A stretch of DNA of 64,000 bases from the human T2T-CHM13v2.0 reference genome, Homo sapiens, in the NCBI GenBank assembly GCA_009914755.4, contig CP068257.2, positions 13,088,001-13,152,000 on the forward strand. Direction: 5' to 3'. How positions within the stretch are numbered: position 1 is the stretch's first letter; each line of letters opens with the position of its first letter. The notes beneath the pieces are model-generated. The model searched no databases. It was not told the DNA's origin and saw only the letters and a program-made list of their open reading frames with translations. Both the position numbers and the translations under genes were made by a program. Of this stretch, positions 510-30,900 are shown piece by piece.

Positions 510-834
<325 letters not shown>

Positions 835-11368: not shown

Positions 11369-13995
<2,627 letters not shown>

Positions 13996-22000: not shown

Positions 22001-22451
22001 TTTGAGAAACTCTGCACGCTCCAACTAAGATGAATTCAAAGAAATACACACCAAGCAACATCATAATCAAATTGTCAAAAGTCAAAGAAAAACAATTTTG
22101 AAAGCACCAGGAGAAAAGCAACTTGTTATGAACAAGAGACTAACACCAGATTTCTCAGAAGAAACCTTCCAAGACAGAAGAGAAGTGGGATGATATATCA
22201 AAACACTGACAGAAAAAAAACCTGCCAGTCACGAATACTGTATCCAGAAAAACTATCCTTTAGTAATTAAGGAAAAATACTCTCCCAGATAAAGAAAAGC
22301 TGAGGGAATTCATCATCAGTAGACCGCCTTACAAGAAGTTCTAAAGGGAGTTTATCAAGTTGAAATGAATGGATGCTAAACAGCAGCATGAAAGCATACA
22401 TAAATACAAAGCTCACTGGTAAAGGTAAATACATAAAAACATAAAGAATAC

Positions 22452-22810
22452 TATTGCTGTGATCTGAATGTTTGTGTGCATTCAAAGTTGATTTGTTGTC
22501 ATCTTAACCCCCAAGATAATGGTATGAGGAAGTGGGGCCTTTGGGAGACAATTAGGTCATGGGAGCCAAGCCTTCATAAATGGGATTAATGCTTTTACAA
22601 AAGAGGCCCCTGTGATCTTGCTTGCCTCTTCTGCTATGTGAGAACACAGAGAGAAGGCATAGTCTATGAATAGGAAGTGGGCCCTCATCAGATACCAAAT
22701 CTCTTGATACCTTCACCTTAAACTACCCAGCCTCCAGAACCATGACAAATAATTGTTTGTTGTTTATAAGCTACACAGCTTATGGTATTTTATTACAGCA
22801 GCCTTAACAA
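22452..22810 (+). mobile_element. Solo MaLR LTR (MLT-type) nested in the old L1
   Basis: Starts ctattgctgtgatctgaatgtttgtgtgcattcaaagttgatttgttgtcatcttaaccccc. It contains ggcctttgggagacaattaggtcatgggagccaagccttcataaatgggattaatgc and ends tggtattttattacagcagccttaacaaactaagacaa. Confidence 0.7.
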
Positions 22811-24510
22811 ACTAAGACAACTGTAATATTGTAACAATGCTGTATAAATCTTTTAATTATTGTATAAAAGTTAAAAGATAAAAGTATAAGAAATAATTAT
22901 AAAAATCTAGCAATGGGTATACAATATAAAAAGATGTAATTTGTGACATCAATAGCATAAAGTATGGGGGAAGTTATCAGTGTAAAGTAGATTATTTTAA
23001 CAATAACATGTTTTATGTAAGTTTTATGGCAACCACAATGAAAGTACCTATATAGCAGATATTCAAAAGAAAATGAGAAAGAAATCAAAACATGCCACTA
23101 CAAAAAAGTCAGAAAAATACAAAGTAAGACAGTGAGAGCAAAAGTGAGTCAAAAAGCTATGAGACAGCTAAAAAGCAATTTAAGAAGTGGCAATAGTAAG
23201 TCCTTTCCTATCAATAATTACTTTAAATGTAAATAAATTTAACTCTCGATTAAAAGACTGATATAGTGGCTGAATGGATTTAAAGAAAACAAGACTCAAC
23301 TATATGCTGTATACAAGAAACTCACTTTGGACTTTAAGACCCACACAGGCTGAAAGTGAAAGGATAGAAAAAATAATCCACACAAATTGTAGTCAAAAAA
23401 GACAGCAAGAGTGGCCAAATTTATATCAGACAGAGTAGATTTTAAGTCAAGAACTGTCCAAAAAGACAAAGAAGGACAAAGACATTATATAATGATATAA
23501 GGGTCAATCTGCCAGGAATATGTAACAATTATAAATATACATGTGCCCATAATCAGAGCACCCAAATACAGGAAGCAATCAATGAAAGAATTTAATAGAG
23601 AAATAGACAACACACAATAACAGTAGGGAATTTCAATATACCACACTCAATAATTGATAGAACATCCAGACAGAAGATCAATAAGGAAATAAATAAATAA
23701 GAGGATTTGAACCAGACTATAGATCAAATGGAACTGACAGACATTTGCAGAACATTCCACCTTGCAGCAGCAGAATACATATTTTTCCCAAGCATGCATG
23801 AAACATTCTCCAGAATAGATCACATGTTAAGTCACAAAGAAGTCTTAACAAATTTAAGAAGATTCAAACTGTGCCAATTATATTTTCCAACAACAATGGA
23901 ATGAAACGAAAAGCAAAGGAAAATGGAAAAGTTCTTAGATATGTGAATATTAAACAACACACTCTTGAATAATCAATGAGTCAAAGAATAAATCAGAAGG
24001 TAAACTTTAGAAAAATATTTTGAGACAAATAAAGATGAAAAGAGAACATAACAAAATATATAGGATGCACCATGACCAAGTCAGATTTATCCCTGGGTTA
24101 CACGGATGGCCAAAATACAAAAATAATCAATATGAGACACCACATTAACAGAATAAAGGATAAAAATTACATTATTATCACAATATATGCAGAAAAAGCA
24201 TCTGAAACATTTAACACCCTTTCATGATAAAAACACTCAATAAACTAATAGAAGAAAATTACCTCAACATAATACAGGCTACAGTTAATGTCATGCTATA
24301 CAGTGAAAAACTGAAAGCTTTTCCTCTAAGATCAGGAATCAGTTAAGGATGCCCACTCTGACCACTTTCATTCAACATACTACTGGAAGTCCTAGCCAGA
24401 GAAATTAGGCAAGAAATATAATAAAAAGGCATCCAAATCAGAAAGAAAGAAAAACAAATTTTCACTGTTGGCAGATAATATGACGCTGTATGTAGAAAAC
24501 CTTGACAATT

Positions 24511-24540
24511 ACACACACACAGACACACACACACATACAC
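24511..24540. repeat. (AC)n microsatellite
   Basis: acacacacacagacacacacacacatacac. Confidence 0.9.
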
Positions 24541-24766
24541 AAACCATTAGAACTAATAAACCAATTACGCAAAGTTGCAGGATACAAAATCAACACACAA
24601 AAATCAGTTGAGTATATGTACATTACCAGTGAACAATTGGAAACAAAAATGAAGAAGACAGTCCATTTACAACTGAATACAAAAGAATAAAATTCTTAGT
24701 AATAATCTAAACTGAGAAGTATTATAAAATATCTAGACACTGAAATCTATAAAAGATTGCTAAAAC

Positions 24767-24790
24767 ACGCACACACACACACACACACAA
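24767..24790. repeat. (AC)n microsatellite abutting the 5' junction of the POLR2C retrocopy
   Basis: acgcacacacacacacacacacaa, directly followed by atagggggcatgatgccataagccaacc. Confidence 0.9.
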
Positions 24791-24793
24791 ATA

Positions 24794-26440
24794 GGGGGCA
24801 TGATGCCATAAGCCAACCAGCCCACAATGTCAAGTTTATCATCCAGAACACCAATGCGGCAGTGGCCATTTCGATTCGGAGTGTCTTCTTCTCTGAGGTG
24901 CCCATAATAGTCATTGACTGGGTTCAAATTGATGCCAATTCCTCAGTTCTTCATGATGAGTTCATGGCTCACAAACTTAGATTAATTCCCCTCATTAGTG
25001 AGGACATTGTGGACAAGCTGCTATCCTCCCGGGACTGCCCATGTGAAGAGTTCTGCTGAGTGCTTGGTGGAGTTCACCCTCGATGTGCAGTGCAATGATG
25101 ACCAGATTTGACATGTCACATCTTGAGACCTCATCTCCAACAGCCCCCAGGTCATTCCAGTGAAACAAGATGATGACCCTAATGACTACGTGGAGCAGGA
25201 TGACATTCTCATCATCAAGTTGAGAAAGGGCCAGGAGCTGAGACTTTGAGCCTATACAAAAAAGTGTTTTAGCAAGGAGCATGCCAAGTTGAACCTTACT
25301 GCAGGGGTGGCTTTTGAATACAATCCAGACAATGCCATGAGGCATGCAGTGTACCCCAAACCCAAGGAGTGGCCAAAGAGTGAGCACTTGGAGCTGGATG
25401 AGGATGAGTCACAGGTGCCCTGTGACCCCATGGGCAAGCCAGAAAGGTTTTACTACAACATGAATTCCTAAGGCTCTCTGTGTCCTTAAGCCATGTGCTC
25501 TTAGCCCTCACTGGATTGAAGAAGAAGCTGAGTGATTTAAAAACTCAATTAAGCCACGAGATCCAGAGTGACATGCTAACTATAAACTAGCTGCAGCTTG
25601 CTGCTTCAGCAAGAATGGGGATTCAAGCCAGCAGCTGGATTTGGGGGGTCTCTCTTGAGACTCTTCTAGTTTTTGGAAATCTAGTCTACTGTTGCTTGAG
25701 CTTCTTGGCAGGTCATCAGTACCAACTAGAAGCGGGTAATAGATTACTAGGGATGCCAGCGGCATTTAAGCAGGACAGTTTTTTACTGGCCCTAACTGCT
25801 AATCGCCAGCAGTGCTCCACAGATCCTAAAACATCCCTTTTAGCCTGTTTCCTAATGCGTCTGTAGGGGAGCCAACCGGACTTCTCTCCTGGTTAGTTCA
25901 GTTCTTTACTTTAAACGCTTTCTGTCCAAAAGGAATAATTTCAGTTGTACCTTAGATTTCTGGTATTAGGATTGAATGTCACAGCCTTCATTCAAAGGGC
26001 CTATAAACCCTTCCAGTTCTTTCCCCAAGTCTGTCCTACTAGCACTTCAAATTCACAGGCATCTTTAATTTGAGAAGTAACCTTCTGGGAAGAGCATCAG
26101 GCCATGGCTGTGCCCTCTCCCCTATGTAGATACAATATTTCACTCTCTACCCAGCAGTTACAAACCCCTTCACCACCAATACCTGATTATTTAGTTTGGT
26201 GATGGTGGTGGTGGTAGTGGTGGCAGTGGCCAGCAGGAGCAAGGGCCCCTCCCACATACACAGAAGTATTTCATTTCTCCCAAATGAAGGCTCTGGCCCT
26301 GACCTCTTAACACTGTCTCCAGGGAGGAACATACACAAAGCAGTTAATTAGCAGCCTGGAAAAAACACAGAAAGAAAGAGATATTTATTGATTAACAGAA
26401 GTTGTGTTTTTAAAAGTGTTTATTTTTGGCAATGAAGAGC
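24794..26440 (+). pseudogene. POLR2C: Processed pseudogene of POLR2C (RNA polymerase II subunit RPB3): intronless CDS homolog 24803-25590 plus 3'UTR
   Basis: The translation ANQPT…[77 protein letters not shown]…[22 protein letters not shown]…[65 protein letters not shown] collinearly matches RPB3 ([26 protein letters not shown]…[16 protein letters not shown]…). It carries in-frame stop codons, a roughly 30-nt N-terminal deletion, and a frameshifted C-terminus. The coding sequence is contiguous with no introns, which is the signature of a retrocopy. It is inserted inside L1 ORF2. Confidence 0.8.
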
Positions 26441-27695
26441 ACAACATAATCTCAAAAAAGTTAAAAAAAGAAAAGAAGACACAAATAAATGGAAAGACTT
26501 CCCACGTTCATGGATTAGAAGACATTGTTCAAATGTCCATACCACCCAAAGTCTACACATTTAATGCAATTCCTATTAAAGTCATAGTGACATTTTTTGC
26601 AGAAATTGACAAAACAATTCTAAAAATTGTACAGAAGTACAAATGACCCCAAAGTAGCCTAAACAATCTTGACAAAAAGAGCAAAACTGGAGGCCTCAAA
26701 CTTTTTAACTTTAGAACATATTACAAAGCTATAGTCATCAAAAGACCATGGTACTGGAATAAAGATAGACATATAGGCTAATGGAACAATACTGAGAGTC
26801 CAGAAATAAACCCACACATATACAGTCAAATGATCTTTGACAGGATGCCAAGAGTACACAATGGGAAAAGGATAGTATCAAAAAATTGGTGCTGGAAAAA
26901 CTAGATATTCACATTCAAAAAGAATAAAATTGGATCCTTATTTTATATCATGCACAAAAATCAACTCAAAATAGATTAAAGACTTAAACATAAGACATGA
27001 ATTTATAAAACTCCAAGAAGGCAACATAGGGTAAAATTTTCATAACATTTGTCTTGGCAATTAATTCTTGGATATGACACCAAAAGCACAAGTAACAAAA
27101 GCAAAAATAGACAAATGGATTTACATCAAATGAAAAAGCCAGAAACTAAAAATCTTCTGCATAGTGAAGGAAATAATCAACCGAGTACAAAAGCAACCTA
27201 CAGAATGAGAGAAAATATTTGTAAACCATATATCTGACAGGGGGTTAATATAAAAATATACAAGAAACTCAATAGCAGAAAATAAAAATAAAAATAACTA
27301 TCTTCAAAGAAGAGATACAAATGACCGACAGGCATATGAAAAGACATTCTTCACTAATCATTAGAGAAATGCAAATCAAAACCACACTGAGGTATCATCT
27401 CACACTCATTATGATGGTCATTATAAAAAATTAAAAATTAAAAAAATAAAGTGTTGGCAAGGATGTGGAAAAATTTGAACCGTGTGCACTACTGGTAAGA
27501 ATATAAAATGATGTTGCCACTATAAAAAAAACAGCATAGAGATTGATAGAAAAATTAAAAATAAAAACTACCATTTGATCCAGCAATCCCACTTCTGGGC
27601 ATTTATCCAAAAGAGCTGAAATCAGGACATGGAAGATATTTGCCCTTCCGTGTTCATTGCAGCATTATTCACAATAGATAAGAATTAGAAACAAC

Positions 27696-27999
27696 TGGTC
27701 GGGAGCGGTGGCTCATGCCTGTAATCCCAGCATTTTGGGAGGCCGAGGCGGGCAGATCACGAGGTCAGGAGATTGAGACCATCCTGGCTAACATGGTGAA
27801 ACACCATCTCTACTAAAAATAAATAAATAAAAAAATTAGCCGAGCGCGGTGGCAGGCAGGTGCCTGTAATCCCAGCTACTCCGGAGGCAGAGGCAGGAGA
27901 ATGGCGTGAACCCAGGACGGCGAGCTTGCAGTGAGCCGAGATCACGCCACTGAACTCCAGCCTGGGTGACAGAGCGAGATTCCGTCTCAAAAAAAGAAA
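27696..27999 (+). mobile_element. AluY-like SINE with 15-bp TSDs (agaattagaaacaac at 27681-27695 and 28000-28014), nested in the old L1 3' region
   Basis: Starts ggtcgggagcggtggctcatgcctgtaatcccagcattttgggaggccgaggcgggcagatcacgaggtcaggagattgagaccatcctggctaacatggtgaaac. The flank is duplicated perfectly. The ORF at 27757..27990 is Alu-derived. Confidence 0.93.
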
Positions 28000-30900
28000 A
28001 GAATTAGAAACAACCTAAAAGTTTATCAGCAATATGTATGGATAAAGAAAATGTACTATATATTTATACAATAGAATATTATTCAGCCATAAAAAGAAGA
28101 AAATTCTGTTACATAGATATACCTTGAGGACATTATGCCAAGTGAAATACGCCAGTACAAGAAAGACAAATAGTACTTGATTCCACTATGTGAAGTATCT
28201 AAAATAGTCAAACTCATGGAAATATAGAGTAAAATTATGGTTTCTAGATGCTAGGAAGAGGGACAAATGGGAAAATTGCTGTTCCGTGAGCATAAAGTTT
28301 TAATCATACAAGAGACAAAATTTTCACAGATCTGCTCTACAACATTATGCTTATAGTTAACAATGCTGTACCATACACCCAAAATTTAAGAGGAAAGATC
28401 TTACGTGTTTTTTACCACAATAAAAAAATTTTGTAACATTCACAGAAAAAATTTTTTTTTACTTTATTTGTACATATAATGGAACCTTTTGATCTACAGC
28501 TCAAAGGCAAAAAGCAATCATTCCAAATTAAATTATCTTGGTTAATATGGCTGTTTACAATAGGGAATATGGCTCATCACACTCCAACTGAAAAATAAAG
28601 ACTTTCTAATCTCAATAGCCTGGCCTGTAATAAGAATATAAAATTATAAACGCAAACTTTCAACTCCCAAGTGAAGCATGAATTCCAGAGCCACTGTATA
28701 TTGAGAGTGGGGAGAAGTGTATGCTTAAGGGTAAGATTCATATTTTATATTTTATCTCCCTGGAGGAACAGCGTCTCTCCTCAAAGAGAGAGCCATCACA
28801 GTGTAAAGCATAATACAATGGCAATCAAAGGGGCATCCACAGATAACCATGTTCATTACATTGCCTTTAATTGCTTTAGCCTAAAAGACAGCAGCCCAAA
28901 AGTATAGATCCATGGCAGATCATTGTACTTAAACAGTCAAATATGTATCCTTCATATTTTAAAATATAGCCACTGGCCCACCAAATAGGAGTTCTACTGT
29001 CCACTTCTCTCACACTGCCTTCTACACAGTATAAAACCTTTCATCTTGACATAATTAGAAGAATCTTCCAAACAAGTAAAACTATGACTTGCTCACATGC
29101 CTACTTTTCCCACATGACCGTGGCAAAATCAGATATTGTCAGACAACTTGAGGACCTCAATTCACCATAGAATTTTCATAAAATGGTTAAGAGGTAGGAT
29201 CCTATGGTTCATGGAGGAAATTTGGGAAGAATTCATGCTTAGGCTAATAAAAAATACAGTTCATTCATTCATCTCCATGAAGACAGGAAAACTATGCCAT
29301 TCTGATCTTCACTGTATCAATCAATGGTCTGTAATTGTTCAGTAAAAATTCTTCAAATGAAGGAATGTCCAAAGTTGTCTGGATTCAGTCTGTAAAAGAG
29401 TAATTAAGCTTTTGCTTTTGCTTAATATACATGCCTTGACAGTATATTAAAGTGCTTAATTAAGCAGCTTTTTTATGGTCACAGAAGTCTTTGTGATATT
29501 TAACATTATGAAATCTACATATTCAGAGCCACCTCTAGTCTATAAAATTAAAGTATTTACATATAATTTAATCACATATTTTCTTCACAAAAGGCATTAT
29601 TTAAGATATGGCAACTAAATCAGAGAATTCTGGACAATTGCTTTTGTTCATAATTTTATCCAAATGATGAAGTTCATAATTACACAATGTTACAGTTATG
29701 AATATATTAAGGTAGACCTTAAAAGCTCACAGCAAAAGAGTAACACAGTGTCTGAGATTGTGCAATGTACCAAAGAGGATATTGACTTTACTCTGGATAA
29801 TACGCAGACAAATTTACATTTATGTCTTAAACTTAACCCCTAACCTTATAAATGATTGAATGCACCCAGTGGCTTATTTTCTGTAAATCAGTAAGTAACC
29901 TCAAATGAATGCATCAATTTTCATAATGCATGCATTGTTAGTATCATCTAATATTTTTATTTCAAGTAAATAACCATATTATTCATGCTAGTAGCTGGTA
30001 CAAACCTTTACCATTCTTCTTAAATTACTTAGCTGGACTCACCCACTCATTTTAACAGATGGCCAAGCCTCCTACCTCACAGAGAAAATAGCAGCCATCA
30101 GTCACAAACCGCACCTCTTGTATTATCTGCATGTTCCCCAGCTTTCTCTCCTTCCCTTCTGTCCCAAAGGATGTCTTGCCTGTCTTCCAAAGATAACACT
30201 TTAATCTGTACTCCTGATTTCATCTTCTTCCTTTCTTCCTCTCTATGTTTACTGAGTGCCTTCTGATGCCAGAATATTCTAAGCCTGGGGACACAGTGTG
30301 AAACAAGACACAAAGCCCCTCTCCTTGTGGACTTTGCATTCTATTATGTGTCCTCCAACGCCTTTTCAATATTCACCACCGTTTTTTGAATCTTCACTGT
30401 ATCCTCTGTCGTGGCTGTTCTCTTTTAGCTTACAAACCTGTCTAACTTGTCCTCATCCTTAAAATGAATCTGCTTATTTTGCTGAATTTGAAGGCATGTA
30501 TTTCCTTCCCTTACTGCTGTACTTCTAGAATCAGCTGCAGTTTCTGTTTCTACTTTCACTTCCCTTTTTCACTCCTCAGTGCACAGCTATCTATTTTTCT
30601 TTTGTTCTCTGTACTCCAGTGAAACATTTATCCTCAGCCTTTGACACACTCTTCCTTCCCTTGAGTCCTCATGAATCCTAGGACAGAATATAGTTTATTC
30701 TTCTGGCTACACTTTTTGCTACTGCTTCATTCTCTGCTTGCAACCTTACTGTTTGACTCCCCAAGATTTCTTCTTTGGCCTTCTTTTCTCATTCTGCCCA
30801 TTCTTCTTGAATTATCCTACCCACACCCATGGTTTCAACTACTACCTATGTGCTAACAACTCCAAAATTCTGTTTTCAGAGCCTTCTGAATTCCTTATCT

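What the first reader, a model, noticed from the sequence alone, without database searches (positions are those of the whole stretch)
24794..26440. POLR2C (RPB3) retrocopy inserted into ORF2 of an old L1
The POLR2C homology is contiguous and intronless. It runs from the start codon (24803) to the stop (25590) and is followed by about 850 bp of 3'UTR-like sequence. It is bounded on both sides by collinear L1 ORF2 sequence: [13 protein letters not shown] before it, then the insert, then …IISKKLKKEKKTQINGK…YTFNAIPIKV after it. So it is a retrocopy mobilised by L1 machinery into another L1. It carries premature stop codons (CEEFC*) and a roughly 30-nt deletion removing RITELTDEN. It is probably non-functional but about 80% identical at the amino-acid level, which points to a moderately old, primate-lineage insertion. 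An (AC)13 repeat sits exactly at the 5' junction.
Basis: partly seen in the sequence, partly recalled or inferred. Interest (0 to 1): 0.5.

Follow-up and report, generated by a model that had tools for sequence, protein, structure and literature searches.

The report
Dead POLR2C retrocopy inside old L1
This is an ordinary, long-dead processed pseudogene: a spliced, polyadenylated POLR2C (RNA polymerase II subunit RPB3) mRNA that LINE-1 machinery copied into an older LINE-1 element in a primate ancestor, and it has decayed neutrally since.

Summary

- **What it is.** Window 24793-26453 is an intronless copy of the POLR2C mRNA. It holds about 10 nt of 5'UTR, the whole 828-nt coding region and the whole roughly 860-nt 3'UTR.
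- **Intronless.** It runs without a break across all 8 exon junctions of the 9-exon parent gene.
- **3' end.** It stops at the parent's cleavage site, 17 nt after AATAAA (now AATGAA). A degraded poly(A) tract follows.
- **Host.** It splits one old L1 ORF2 at about residue 790. A second L1 in the window is continuous across that point.
- **Target-site duplication.** It is only partly recognisable (AAAA...ACACAAATA). The (AC)12.5 repeat lies inside its left copy.
- **Dead.** It carries 6 point-mutation stops, 3 frameshifting deletions (28, 2 and 1 nt) and a 9-nt in-frame deletion. Parental CpGs have fallen from 40 to 13. Substitutions are spread evenly over codon positions.
- **Age.** Comparison with monkey, cat and another mammal's POLR2C places insertion late on the primate stem, roughly 45-65 Myr ago, near or before the Old World/New World monkey split.
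- **Source.** The window is human: it is 100% identical to host-DNA contigs from human gut metagenomes.

Interest is low.

The parts
22137..24765 (+). Left half of the host L1. It is old, riddled with stops, and covers the ORF2 endonuclease and reverse-transcriptase region up to about ORF2p residue K790 (...KDLYTENYKTLLK, read here as [13 protein letters not shown]).
   Evidence: phmmer to human L1 ORF2p structures 8sxt/8uw3. Collinear blastn to the younger L1 at 47917-50396. MAFFT against 50560-50720.
24511..24541 (+). An older (AC)15.5 microsatellite inside the host L1 ORF2. It shows that CA-rich L1 sequence here tends to expand.
   Evidence: TRF; sequence read.
24762..24793 (+). Probable left copy of the target-site duplication: AAAA + CACG(CA)n + AAATA. 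The (AC)12.5 tract (24765-24789) appears to have expanded from the ACACA seed and replaced the middle of the duplicated segment.
   Evidence: The 9-nt exact match ACACAAATA at 24785-24793 equals 26479-26487. The left copy abuts the insert's 5' end; the right copy lies about 25 nt after the mRNA-derived 3' end. Such a match is found in 53 of 5000 random host-L1 47-mers. TRF. The parental 5'UTRs show no homology upstream of about 24793.
24793..24802 (+). Remnant of the POLR2C 5'UTR, about 10 nt (AGGGGGCATG against monkey ACGGGGAGCG). The retrocopy is 5'-truncated within the 5'UTR.
   Evidence: Multiple alignment with 7 parental genes.
24803..25590 (+). Disabled POLR2C/RPB3 coding region: 788 nt of the parental 828.
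- Deletions: 28 nt after 24825, 2 nt after 25055, 9 nt after 25161, 1 nt after 25493.
- Point-mutation stops at codons 3, 113, 118, 162, 236 and 242.
- Exon junctions map to 24860|61, 24910|11, 24979|80, 25032|33, 25159|60, 25202|03, 25371|72 and 25446|47, with no intron sequence at any of them.
25591..26453 (+). Complete POLR2C 3'UTR. It includes the poly(A) signal (AATAAA in all parents, AATGAA here at 26431-26436). It ends at the parental cleavage site (...CATAATCTC).
   Evidence: Differs from monkey 3'UTRs at 15-17% of sites and from cat at 26%. Parental genomic sequence continues CTTCATGCG..., whereas the window switches to A-rich sequence at exactly this point.
26454..26465 (+). Degraded poly(A) tail (AAAAAAGTTAAA). 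Under the alternative duplication model only 26454-26459 is tail.
   Evidence: Sequence read; alignment end.
26466..26487 (+). Probable right copy of the target-site duplication (AAAAGAAAAGAAGACACAAATA). This is also where host L1 ORF2 resumes (…KEDTNKW…). The implied first-strand nick is CT|AAAA on the top strand, i.e. TTTT|AG on the bottom strand.
   Evidence: The endonuclease-site reading is an inference from the established L1 TTTT/AA preference.
26466..28100 (+). Right half of the host L1 ORF2 (about residue 791 onward). It is itself interrupted by an Alu at 27702-28003.
   Evidence: phmmer to ORF2p residues 809-1186. blastn 26467-27695 to 50637-51895 and 27998-28100 to 51879-51977. Alu core match at 27710.

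Best explanation
This is a processed pseudogene of POLR2C.

**Origin (inferred mechanism).** A mature POLR2C mRNA, spliced and polyadenylated, was captured in trans by the ORF2 protein of a then-active L1. It was reverse-transcribed by target-primed reverse transcription at a CT|AAAA site. That site lay inside the ORF2 of an older, already dead L1, in the same orientation. Reverse transcription or integration stopped about 10 nt upstream of the start codon.

**Fate.** The copy had no promoter of its own and was never under selection. It accumulated stops, frameshifts and CpG decay at the neutral rate.

**Timing.** Insertion occurred late on the primate stem lineage, roughly 45-65 Myr ago. This is close to or before the split of Old World and New World anthropoids.

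**The (AC)n.** The repeat at the 5' junction most likely grew afterwards from the ACACA motif of the left target-site duplication.

**Shown:** homology, intronlessness, the exact poly(A)-site end, the single split L1, the disablements, the neutral substitution pattern, and primate-lineage affinity.

**Inferred:** L1 endonuclease/reverse transcriptase as the agent, the exact limits of the duplication, the origin of the (AC)n, and the absolute age.
For: **Identity and structure**
- RPB3 homology at E=1e-131 and both Pfam RPB3 domains.
- Contiguous alignment over all 8 exon junctions of a 9-exon gene whose structure is identical in 7 mammals.
- Homology stops at the conserved cleavage site 17 nt after AATAAA and is followed by an A-tract.
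- In all 7 mammals the parent gene has a PH+IRS-domain gene downstream, and a COQ9 gene upstream in 6 of them. This copy sits inside an L1 instead.

**Host L1**
- The flanks are collinear L1 ORF2.
- A second L1 at 47.9-52.0 kb is uninterrupted across the equivalent point, about 50633-50637.
- A 9-nt duplication match gives p of about 0.01.

**Neutral decay**
- Against the inferred anthropoid-ancestral CDS there are 75 differences in 763 sites.
- They are spread 10.7% / 7.2% / 11.8% over codon positions 1 / 2 / 3.
- Synonymous: nonsynonymous: stop is 21:48:6. The random expectation is 22%: 73%: 4%.
- CpG count fell from 40 to 13. Of 29 conserved parental CpGs, 16 are now TG or CA.

**Age**
- 0-fold-degenerate sites differ at 8.7%, or 6.9% outside CpG.
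- Intron divergence between the two monkey groups is 11.7%.
- 44 of 56 primate-stem-derived bases are shared. Only 5 of 21 and 2 of 19 lineage-specific derived bases are shared.
Against: - The target-site duplication is not clean. Its left copy is mostly replaced by (AC)n.
- An alternative 7-nt duplication (GCTAAAA / GTTAAAA) fits the host L1 length slightly better, with a 1-nt rather than a 4-nt indel relative to the other L1.
- The poly(A) remnant is short and interrupted.
- The age estimates depend on assumed rates. Different estimators gave about 48 to about 70 Myr.
- The species of the comparison loci were inferred from divergence levels, not given by the tools.
Confidence: 0.96

Rival explanations
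1. A DNA-level (segmental) duplication of part of the POLR2C gene, not a retrocopy.
For: None beyond the homology itself.
Against: - All 8 introns are absent. Each is about 150 bp to over 9 kb in the parental genes.
- Homology ends exactly at the mRNA cleavage site and is followed by A's.
- No promoter or upstream sequence is present beyond about 10 nt.
Confidence: 0.005
2. A functional or recently functional retrogene encoding an RPB3-like protein.
For: Amino-acid identity of 79.5% is fairly high.
Against: - There are six point-mutation stops, including one at codon 3, and three frameshifting deletions.
- Substitutions are spread evenly over codon positions, and the synonymous/nonsynonymous/stop ratio matches random mutation.
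- The longest sense ORF with RPB3 similarity is about 85 codons.
Confidence: 0.01
3. A chimeric retrotranscript made by template switching between L1 RNA and POLR2C mRNA during one retrotransposition event, or two unrelated L1 fragments that happen to flank the retrocopy. Either would replace the reading of an insertion into a pre-existing L1.
For: L1 and retrocopy are in the same orientation. The 5' junction is untidy, with (AC)n and no clean duplication.
Against: - L1 sequence resumes after the poly(A) within a few bases of where it stopped, at ORF2p about 790/791. It continues collinearly for more than 1.2 kb.
- A template-switch chimera would place L1 sequence on one side only and would end in a single poly(A).
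- A 9-nt direct repeat brackets the insert.
Confidence: 0.025

Closest known systems
L1-mediated processed pseudogenes (retrocopies) of housekeeping genes in primate genomes
   Same: Intronless. Covers the mRNA from within the 5'UTR to the poly(A) site. Has a poly(A) remnant and a T/AAAA-type target. Has a (degraded) target-site duplication, sits at an unlinked AT-rich, L1-rich locus, carries multiple disablements and shows CpG decay.
   Different: Nothing essential. The target-site duplication is partly overwritten by an (AC)n microsatellite, and the target happens to be another L1.
Parent gene POLR2C (RPB3), with conserved neighbours (COQ9 upstream, a PH+IRS-domain gene downstream) in the fetched mammals
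   Same: Differs from monkey POLR2C at 11-12% of CDS sites and 15-17% of 3'UTR sites (88-89% and 83-85% identical). Has the same poly(A) signal position. Encodes Ile74, as human and monkey RPB3 do, where cat RPB3 has Thr.
   Different: No introns, no promoter, and a reading frame destroyed by 6 stops and 3 frameshifts. The genomic context is unrelated.
Nested transposable-element insertions (for example, the Alu at 27702-28003 in the same host L1)
   Same: It is another L1-machinery-dependent insertion into the same dead L1. This illustrates that A-rich L1 ORF2 sequence is a frequent target.
   Different: The cargo is a cellular mRNA rather than a SINE.

Membership tests
Processed pseudogene / L1-mediated retrocopy | Homology to the spliced mRNA of a multi-exon parent gene, with every intron absent | tested here: met
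   All 8 exon junctions of the 9-exon gene are contiguous in the window.
Processed pseudogene / L1-mediated retrocopy | 3' end at the parental polyadenylation cleavage site, followed by a poly(A) tract | tested here: met
   Homology to 7 parental genes stops at ...AATAAAGAGCACAACATAATCTC (window 26453). AAAAAAGTTAAAAAAA follows.
Processed pseudogene / L1-mediated retrocopy | Flanking target-site duplication of about 7-20 bp | tested here: inconclusive
   AAAA...ACACAAATA (left) matches AAAAGAAAAGAAGACACAAATA (right). The 9-nt exact part gives p of about 0.01. The middle of the left copy is replaced by (AC)n. An alternative 7-nt duplication, GCTAAAA / GTTAAAA, is also possible.
Processed pseudogene / L1-mediated retrocopy | Insertion at an L1-endonuclease-type site (TT/AAAA on the strand carrying the poly(A)) | tested here: met
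   The reconstructed target is ...GATTGCT|AAAAGAAAAG.... This is a CT|AAAA variant. The reading depends on the preferred duplication model.
Processed pseudogene / L1-mediated retrocopy | Location unlinked to the parent gene | tested here: met
   The parental loci have a PH+IRS-domain gene downstream in all 7 mammals, and COQ9 upstream in 6 of them. This copy lies within an L1 in a 37%-GC, repeat-rich window.
Processed pseudogene / L1-mediated retrocopy | Loss of coding capacity and neutral evolution (the 'pseudogene' part) | tested here: met
   6 stops, 3 frameshifting deletions, an even spread of changes over codon positions, and CpG count falling from 40 to 13.
Functional RPB3 (RNA polymerase II subunit 3) | Intact open reading frame of about 275 codons with both RPB3 domains | tested here: not met
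   There is a stop at codon 3 and the frame is lost three times. The domains are recognisable only after manual frame correction.
LINE-1 (host element) | ORF2 with endonuclease and reverse-transcriptase homology, collinear on both sides of the insert | tested here: met
   The left flank matches ORF2p residues 22-294 and 718-790. The right flank matches about 791-1186. Both are collinear with a second L1 in the window.

The most novel reading that the evidence does not exclude
The decayed retrocopy, or its GC-richer 1.7-kb body within an AT-rich L1 desert, might have been co-opted as a non-coding element. Examples would be an antisense or competing-endogenous RNA acting on POLR2C, or a regulatory element. 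Alternatively, the junction (AC)n might be non-templated or template-switch sequence that records an unusual 5'-end resolution of target-primed reverse transcription, rather than a later microsatellite expansion. Nothing found here favours either idea. They are simply not excluded by sequence analysis alone.
Probability: 0.03. Interest if true: 0.3.

Novelty: already known. Interest (0 to 1): 0.06.

Why it matters
It matters little.

Processed pseudogenes of highly expressed housekeeping genes number in the thousands in the human genome. They are systematically catalogued, and insertion into older L1s is commonplace because L1 ORF2 is A-rich.

The locus is a clean textbook example. It shows all-exon splicing, an exact poly(A)-site end and neutral decay.

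It could serve as a neutral-rate marker or as a phylogenetic presence/absence character for early anthropoid branching. It opens no new question.

Tried and rejected
- **Rfam scan of the whole window at gathering thresholds:** no match.
- **Literature search for POLR2CP1 / 'POLR2C pseudogene':** zero papers. Annotation status could not be confirmed. I recall from memory, unverified, that HGNC lists a POLR2C pseudogene.
- **Look-up of gorilla isoform P0081:** not on record.
- **Direct look-up of typed human RPB3:** It worked after the sequence was registered through the listing of cluster members.
- **Look-up of the 130-aa antisense ORF 24995-25387:** not on record. It is a chance ORF on the antisense strand of the coding region.
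- **Scan of JGI metagenome contigs with the 20-mer spanning the 28-nt deletion junction:** two hits, both chance matches in an unrelated sequence. No orthologues were found.
- **L002 as a parental mRNA reference:** rejected. It has a TAA at codon 3 and a frameshift, so it is probably a retrocopy of another mammal.
- **L012:** it looked like a 98%-identical orthologue but is an assembly chimera of this pseudogene and the intron-containing parent gene.
- **Naming the host L1 subfamily:** not possible, because no repeat consensus library is available.

Full report

Yes. Reading 24794-25600 in three frames shows RPB3-like peptide running through frames 1, 3, 1, 3. A frame-corrected translation with stops as X gives these matches:
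- Human RNA polymerase II subunit RPB3 (PDB 5iy6 and others, chain C) at E=1.2e-131, ahead of bovine and pig.
- Both Pfam RPB3 domains, PF01000 and PF01193.
- 209 of 263 aligned residues identical to human RPB3, or 79.5%. The human sequence used was confirmed to be RPB3_HUMAN by exact look-up.

**2. Is it intronless?**

I fetched the cat POLR2C gene as L001. It has a COQ9 gene upstream and a PH+IRS-domain gene downstream. I derived its 9 coding exons (86/50/69/53/129/52/169/75/145 nt) by enforcing GT-AG introns and an exact translation.

Six further genes encoding the human-identical protein have the same 9-exon structure. A PH+IRS-domain gene lies downstream in all of them, and COQ9 upstream in five.

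By blastn, the window matches nine separate cat exons in order. A global alignment to the spliced model is continuous over all eight junctions. In window coordinates these are 24860|61, 24910|11, 24979|80, 25032|33, 25159|60, 25202|03, 25371|72 and 25446|47. No intron sequence is present.

**3. The two ends**

*3' end.* Homology continues through the whole 3'UTR. It differs from monkey 3'UTRs at 15-17% of sites and from cat at 26%. It ends at window 26453 (...CAATGAAGAGCACAACATAATCTC).
- All seven parental genes read AATAAAGAGCACAACATAATCTC there and then continue with genomic CTTCATGCG....
- The window instead switches to AAAAAAGTTAAAAAAAG.
- This is the mRNA cleavage site 17 nt after the poly(A) signal, followed by a degraded poly(A) tail.

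*5' end.* Only about 10 nt of 5'UTR are recognisable (24793-24802). Upstream of that the window has no similarity to any parental 5'UTR. The copy is thus slightly 5'-truncated.

**4. The host element**

Translations of both flanks hit human L1 ORF2p structures (8sxt, 8uw3).
- The left flank covers the endonuclease (residues 22-294) and residues 718 to about 790.
- The right flank covers about 791 to 1186.

A second, younger L1 in the same window (about 47.9-52.0 kb) aligns collinearly with both flanks. It is uninterrupted at the equivalent point, about 50633-50637. One L1 was therefore split by the insertion.

The host L1 spans at least 22137-28100. It also carries a later Alu at 27702-28003.

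From memory, the older-L1 consensus there reads KDLYTENYKTLLK.

'IISKKLKK' is not L1. It is the translated mRNA end plus poly(A). In the proper frame L1 resumes as KEDTNKWKDFPRSWIRR.

**5. Junction details**

The bases immediately before the insert (ACACAAATA, 24785-24793) recur at 26479-26487. There they are genuine L1 sequence (…GAAGACACAAATAAATGG = EDTNKW).

A match of this length abutting the insert occurs in about 1% of random host-L1 47-mers.

*Preferred model.* The target …GATTGCT|AAAAGAAAAGAAGACACAAATA|AATGG… was duplicated over 22 nt after a first-strand nick at a TTTT|AG site on the bottom strand.
- The right copy is intact (26466-26487).
- In the left copy (24762-24793) the middle has been overwritten by (AC)12.5 (TRF), which grew from the ACACA seed.
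- A second (AC)15.5 lies 250 bp upstream in the same L1 (24511-24541). This shows the tendency for such expansion.

*Alternative model.* A 7-nt duplication (GCTAAAA / GTTAAAA) with an A6 tail cannot be excluded. In that case the (AC)n-AAATA would be filler at the 5' junction.

**6. Is it dead, and did it ever evolve under selection?**

Relative to the parents the copy has these changes:
- Deletions of 28, 2, 9 and 1 nt in the coding region. Three of them shift the frame.
- Six point-mutation stops: codon 3 TAC>TAA; three CGA>TGA at codons 113, 118 and 162; and codons 236 and 242.
- About 14 further indels in the 3'UTR.

I inferred the anthropoid-ancestral coding sequence from sites where the two monkey groups agree. 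Against it, 75 of 763 sites differ.
- The differences are spread 10.7% / 7.2% / 11.8% over codon positions 1 / 2 / 3.
- Synonymous: nonsynonymous: stop is 21:48:6. Random mutation would give 22%: 73%: 4%.

CpG dinucleotides fell from 40 in the parents to 13. Of 29 conserved parental CpGs, 16 are now TG or CA. This is the signature of neutral decay in methylated DNA from the time of insertion.

**7. Age and lineage**

The copy is much closer to monkey POLR2C than to the non-primates:

| Comparison | CDS divergence | 3'UTR divergence |
|---|---|---|
| Monkey POLR2C | 11.2-11.7% | 15-17% |
| Cat (L001) | 15.1% | 25.8% |
| Other non-primate (L004) | 15.2% | 31.5% |

L003 and L005-L007 differ from each other by 2% or less. 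L008 differs from L005, one of that group, by 11.7% in introns. That is the magnitude of catarrhine-platyrrhine divergence, so I infer Old World and New World monkeys. The tools gave no species names.

Evidence on timing:
- There are 56 sites where all the monkeys share a base that differs from cat and L004. The retrocopy has the primate-derived base at 44 of them and the ancestral base at 10.
- At sites derived in only one monkey group it is mostly ancestral: 14 of 21 and 14 of 19.
- RPB3 protein is frozen across mammals, so divergence at 0-fold-degenerate sites measures decay since insertion. It is 8.7% (JC 9.3%), or 6.9% outside CpG.
- The neutral branch length since the monkey split is about 6.4% (half of JC 12.8%).

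Together these put insertion late on the primate stem, near or before the catarrhine/platyrrhine split. My estimate is roughly 45-65 Myr, using published split times from general knowledge. The estimators ranged from 48 to 70 Myr.

**8. Source of the window**

The 100-codon ORF 24757-25059 is on record on 13 contigs, several from assemblies labelled 'human gut metagenome'. Two contigs (L013, L014) are 100% identical to the window over 1002 and 955 bp, and L009 is 99.9% identical over 2467 bp. This is host DNA, so the window is human. Alu elements in the window agree with a primate origin.

**9. Comparison with what is known, and verdict**

The locus meets five of the six defining features of an L1-mediated processed pseudogene that I tested. 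The sixth, a clean target-site duplication, is only partly recognisable.

It is not a functional RPB3 gene, not a segmental duplication, and not a template-switch chimera.

Such pseudogenes are abundant and systematically annotated in the human genome. I could not confirm the annotation of this particular one with the available tools (no genome browser, and no paper found). The kind is thoroughly known, and nothing about the anatomy is unusual.

Interest is low. The finding is a correct identification of an ordinary feature.

Noticed in passing
window 47900-52000 (+), with ORFs at 48768-49349 and 49971-50348: A second, much younger L1 with ORF2 fragments still open for up to 193 codons. It is only 65-68% identical in DNA to the host L1 of the retrocopy, so the two belong to very different L1 generations.
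   Followed up: partly
window 27702-28003 (+); other Alu cores at 788-821 (-), 11382-11415 (+), 56311-56344 (+): Alu elements. One is nested in the same host L1 about 1.2 kb downstream of the retrocopy. It is 83% identical to the Alu at 56303-56593.
   Followed up: partly
window 24511-24541: An (AC)15.5 microsatellite has replaced part of the host L1 ORF2, just before the ...LINQLRKVAGYKIN motif. It is independent of the (AC)12.5 at the retrocopy junction.
   Followed up: partly
window 26197-26229: A (TGG)9 / GTGGTGGCA tract in the retrocopy's 3'UTR. The monkey parents have a shorter GGTGGTGG-type tract there, and cat and L004 have almost none. This is a primate-lineage 3'UTR microsatellite that expanded slightly further in the copy.
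   Followed up: partly
L002 (Logan SRR29686987 contig, 1426 nt), positions 323-1298: An intronless POLR2C-like sequence from an unidentified mammal, about 88-90% identical to all the parental CDSs. It also has TAA at codon 3 and a frameshift. It is probably an independent retrocopy in another species. The shared TAC>TAA looks coincidental.
   Followed up: partly
L012 (Logan SRR29668531 contig), positions 1-734 versus 735-1184: An assembly chimera. It joins this pseudogene to the genuine POLR2C gene and continues into intron 7, exon 8 and intron 8. Retrocopies like this one can mis-assemble with their parents in short-read data.
   Followed up: yes
window 12000-13000 and 46000-47000: Two local GC peaks (about 50% GC) in an otherwise 30-40% GC window. 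Each holds a 154-codon ORF on the minus strand (12119-12583 and 46257-46721). I did not examine them. They could be CpG-rich repeats or exons.
   Followed up: no
L015 3242-3261 and L016 317-336 (JGI metagenome contigs): The 20-mer spanning the pseudogene's 28-nt deletion junction occurs by chance in an unrelated sequence shared by two JGI metagenome contigs. There is no further similarity to the window.
   Followed up: yes
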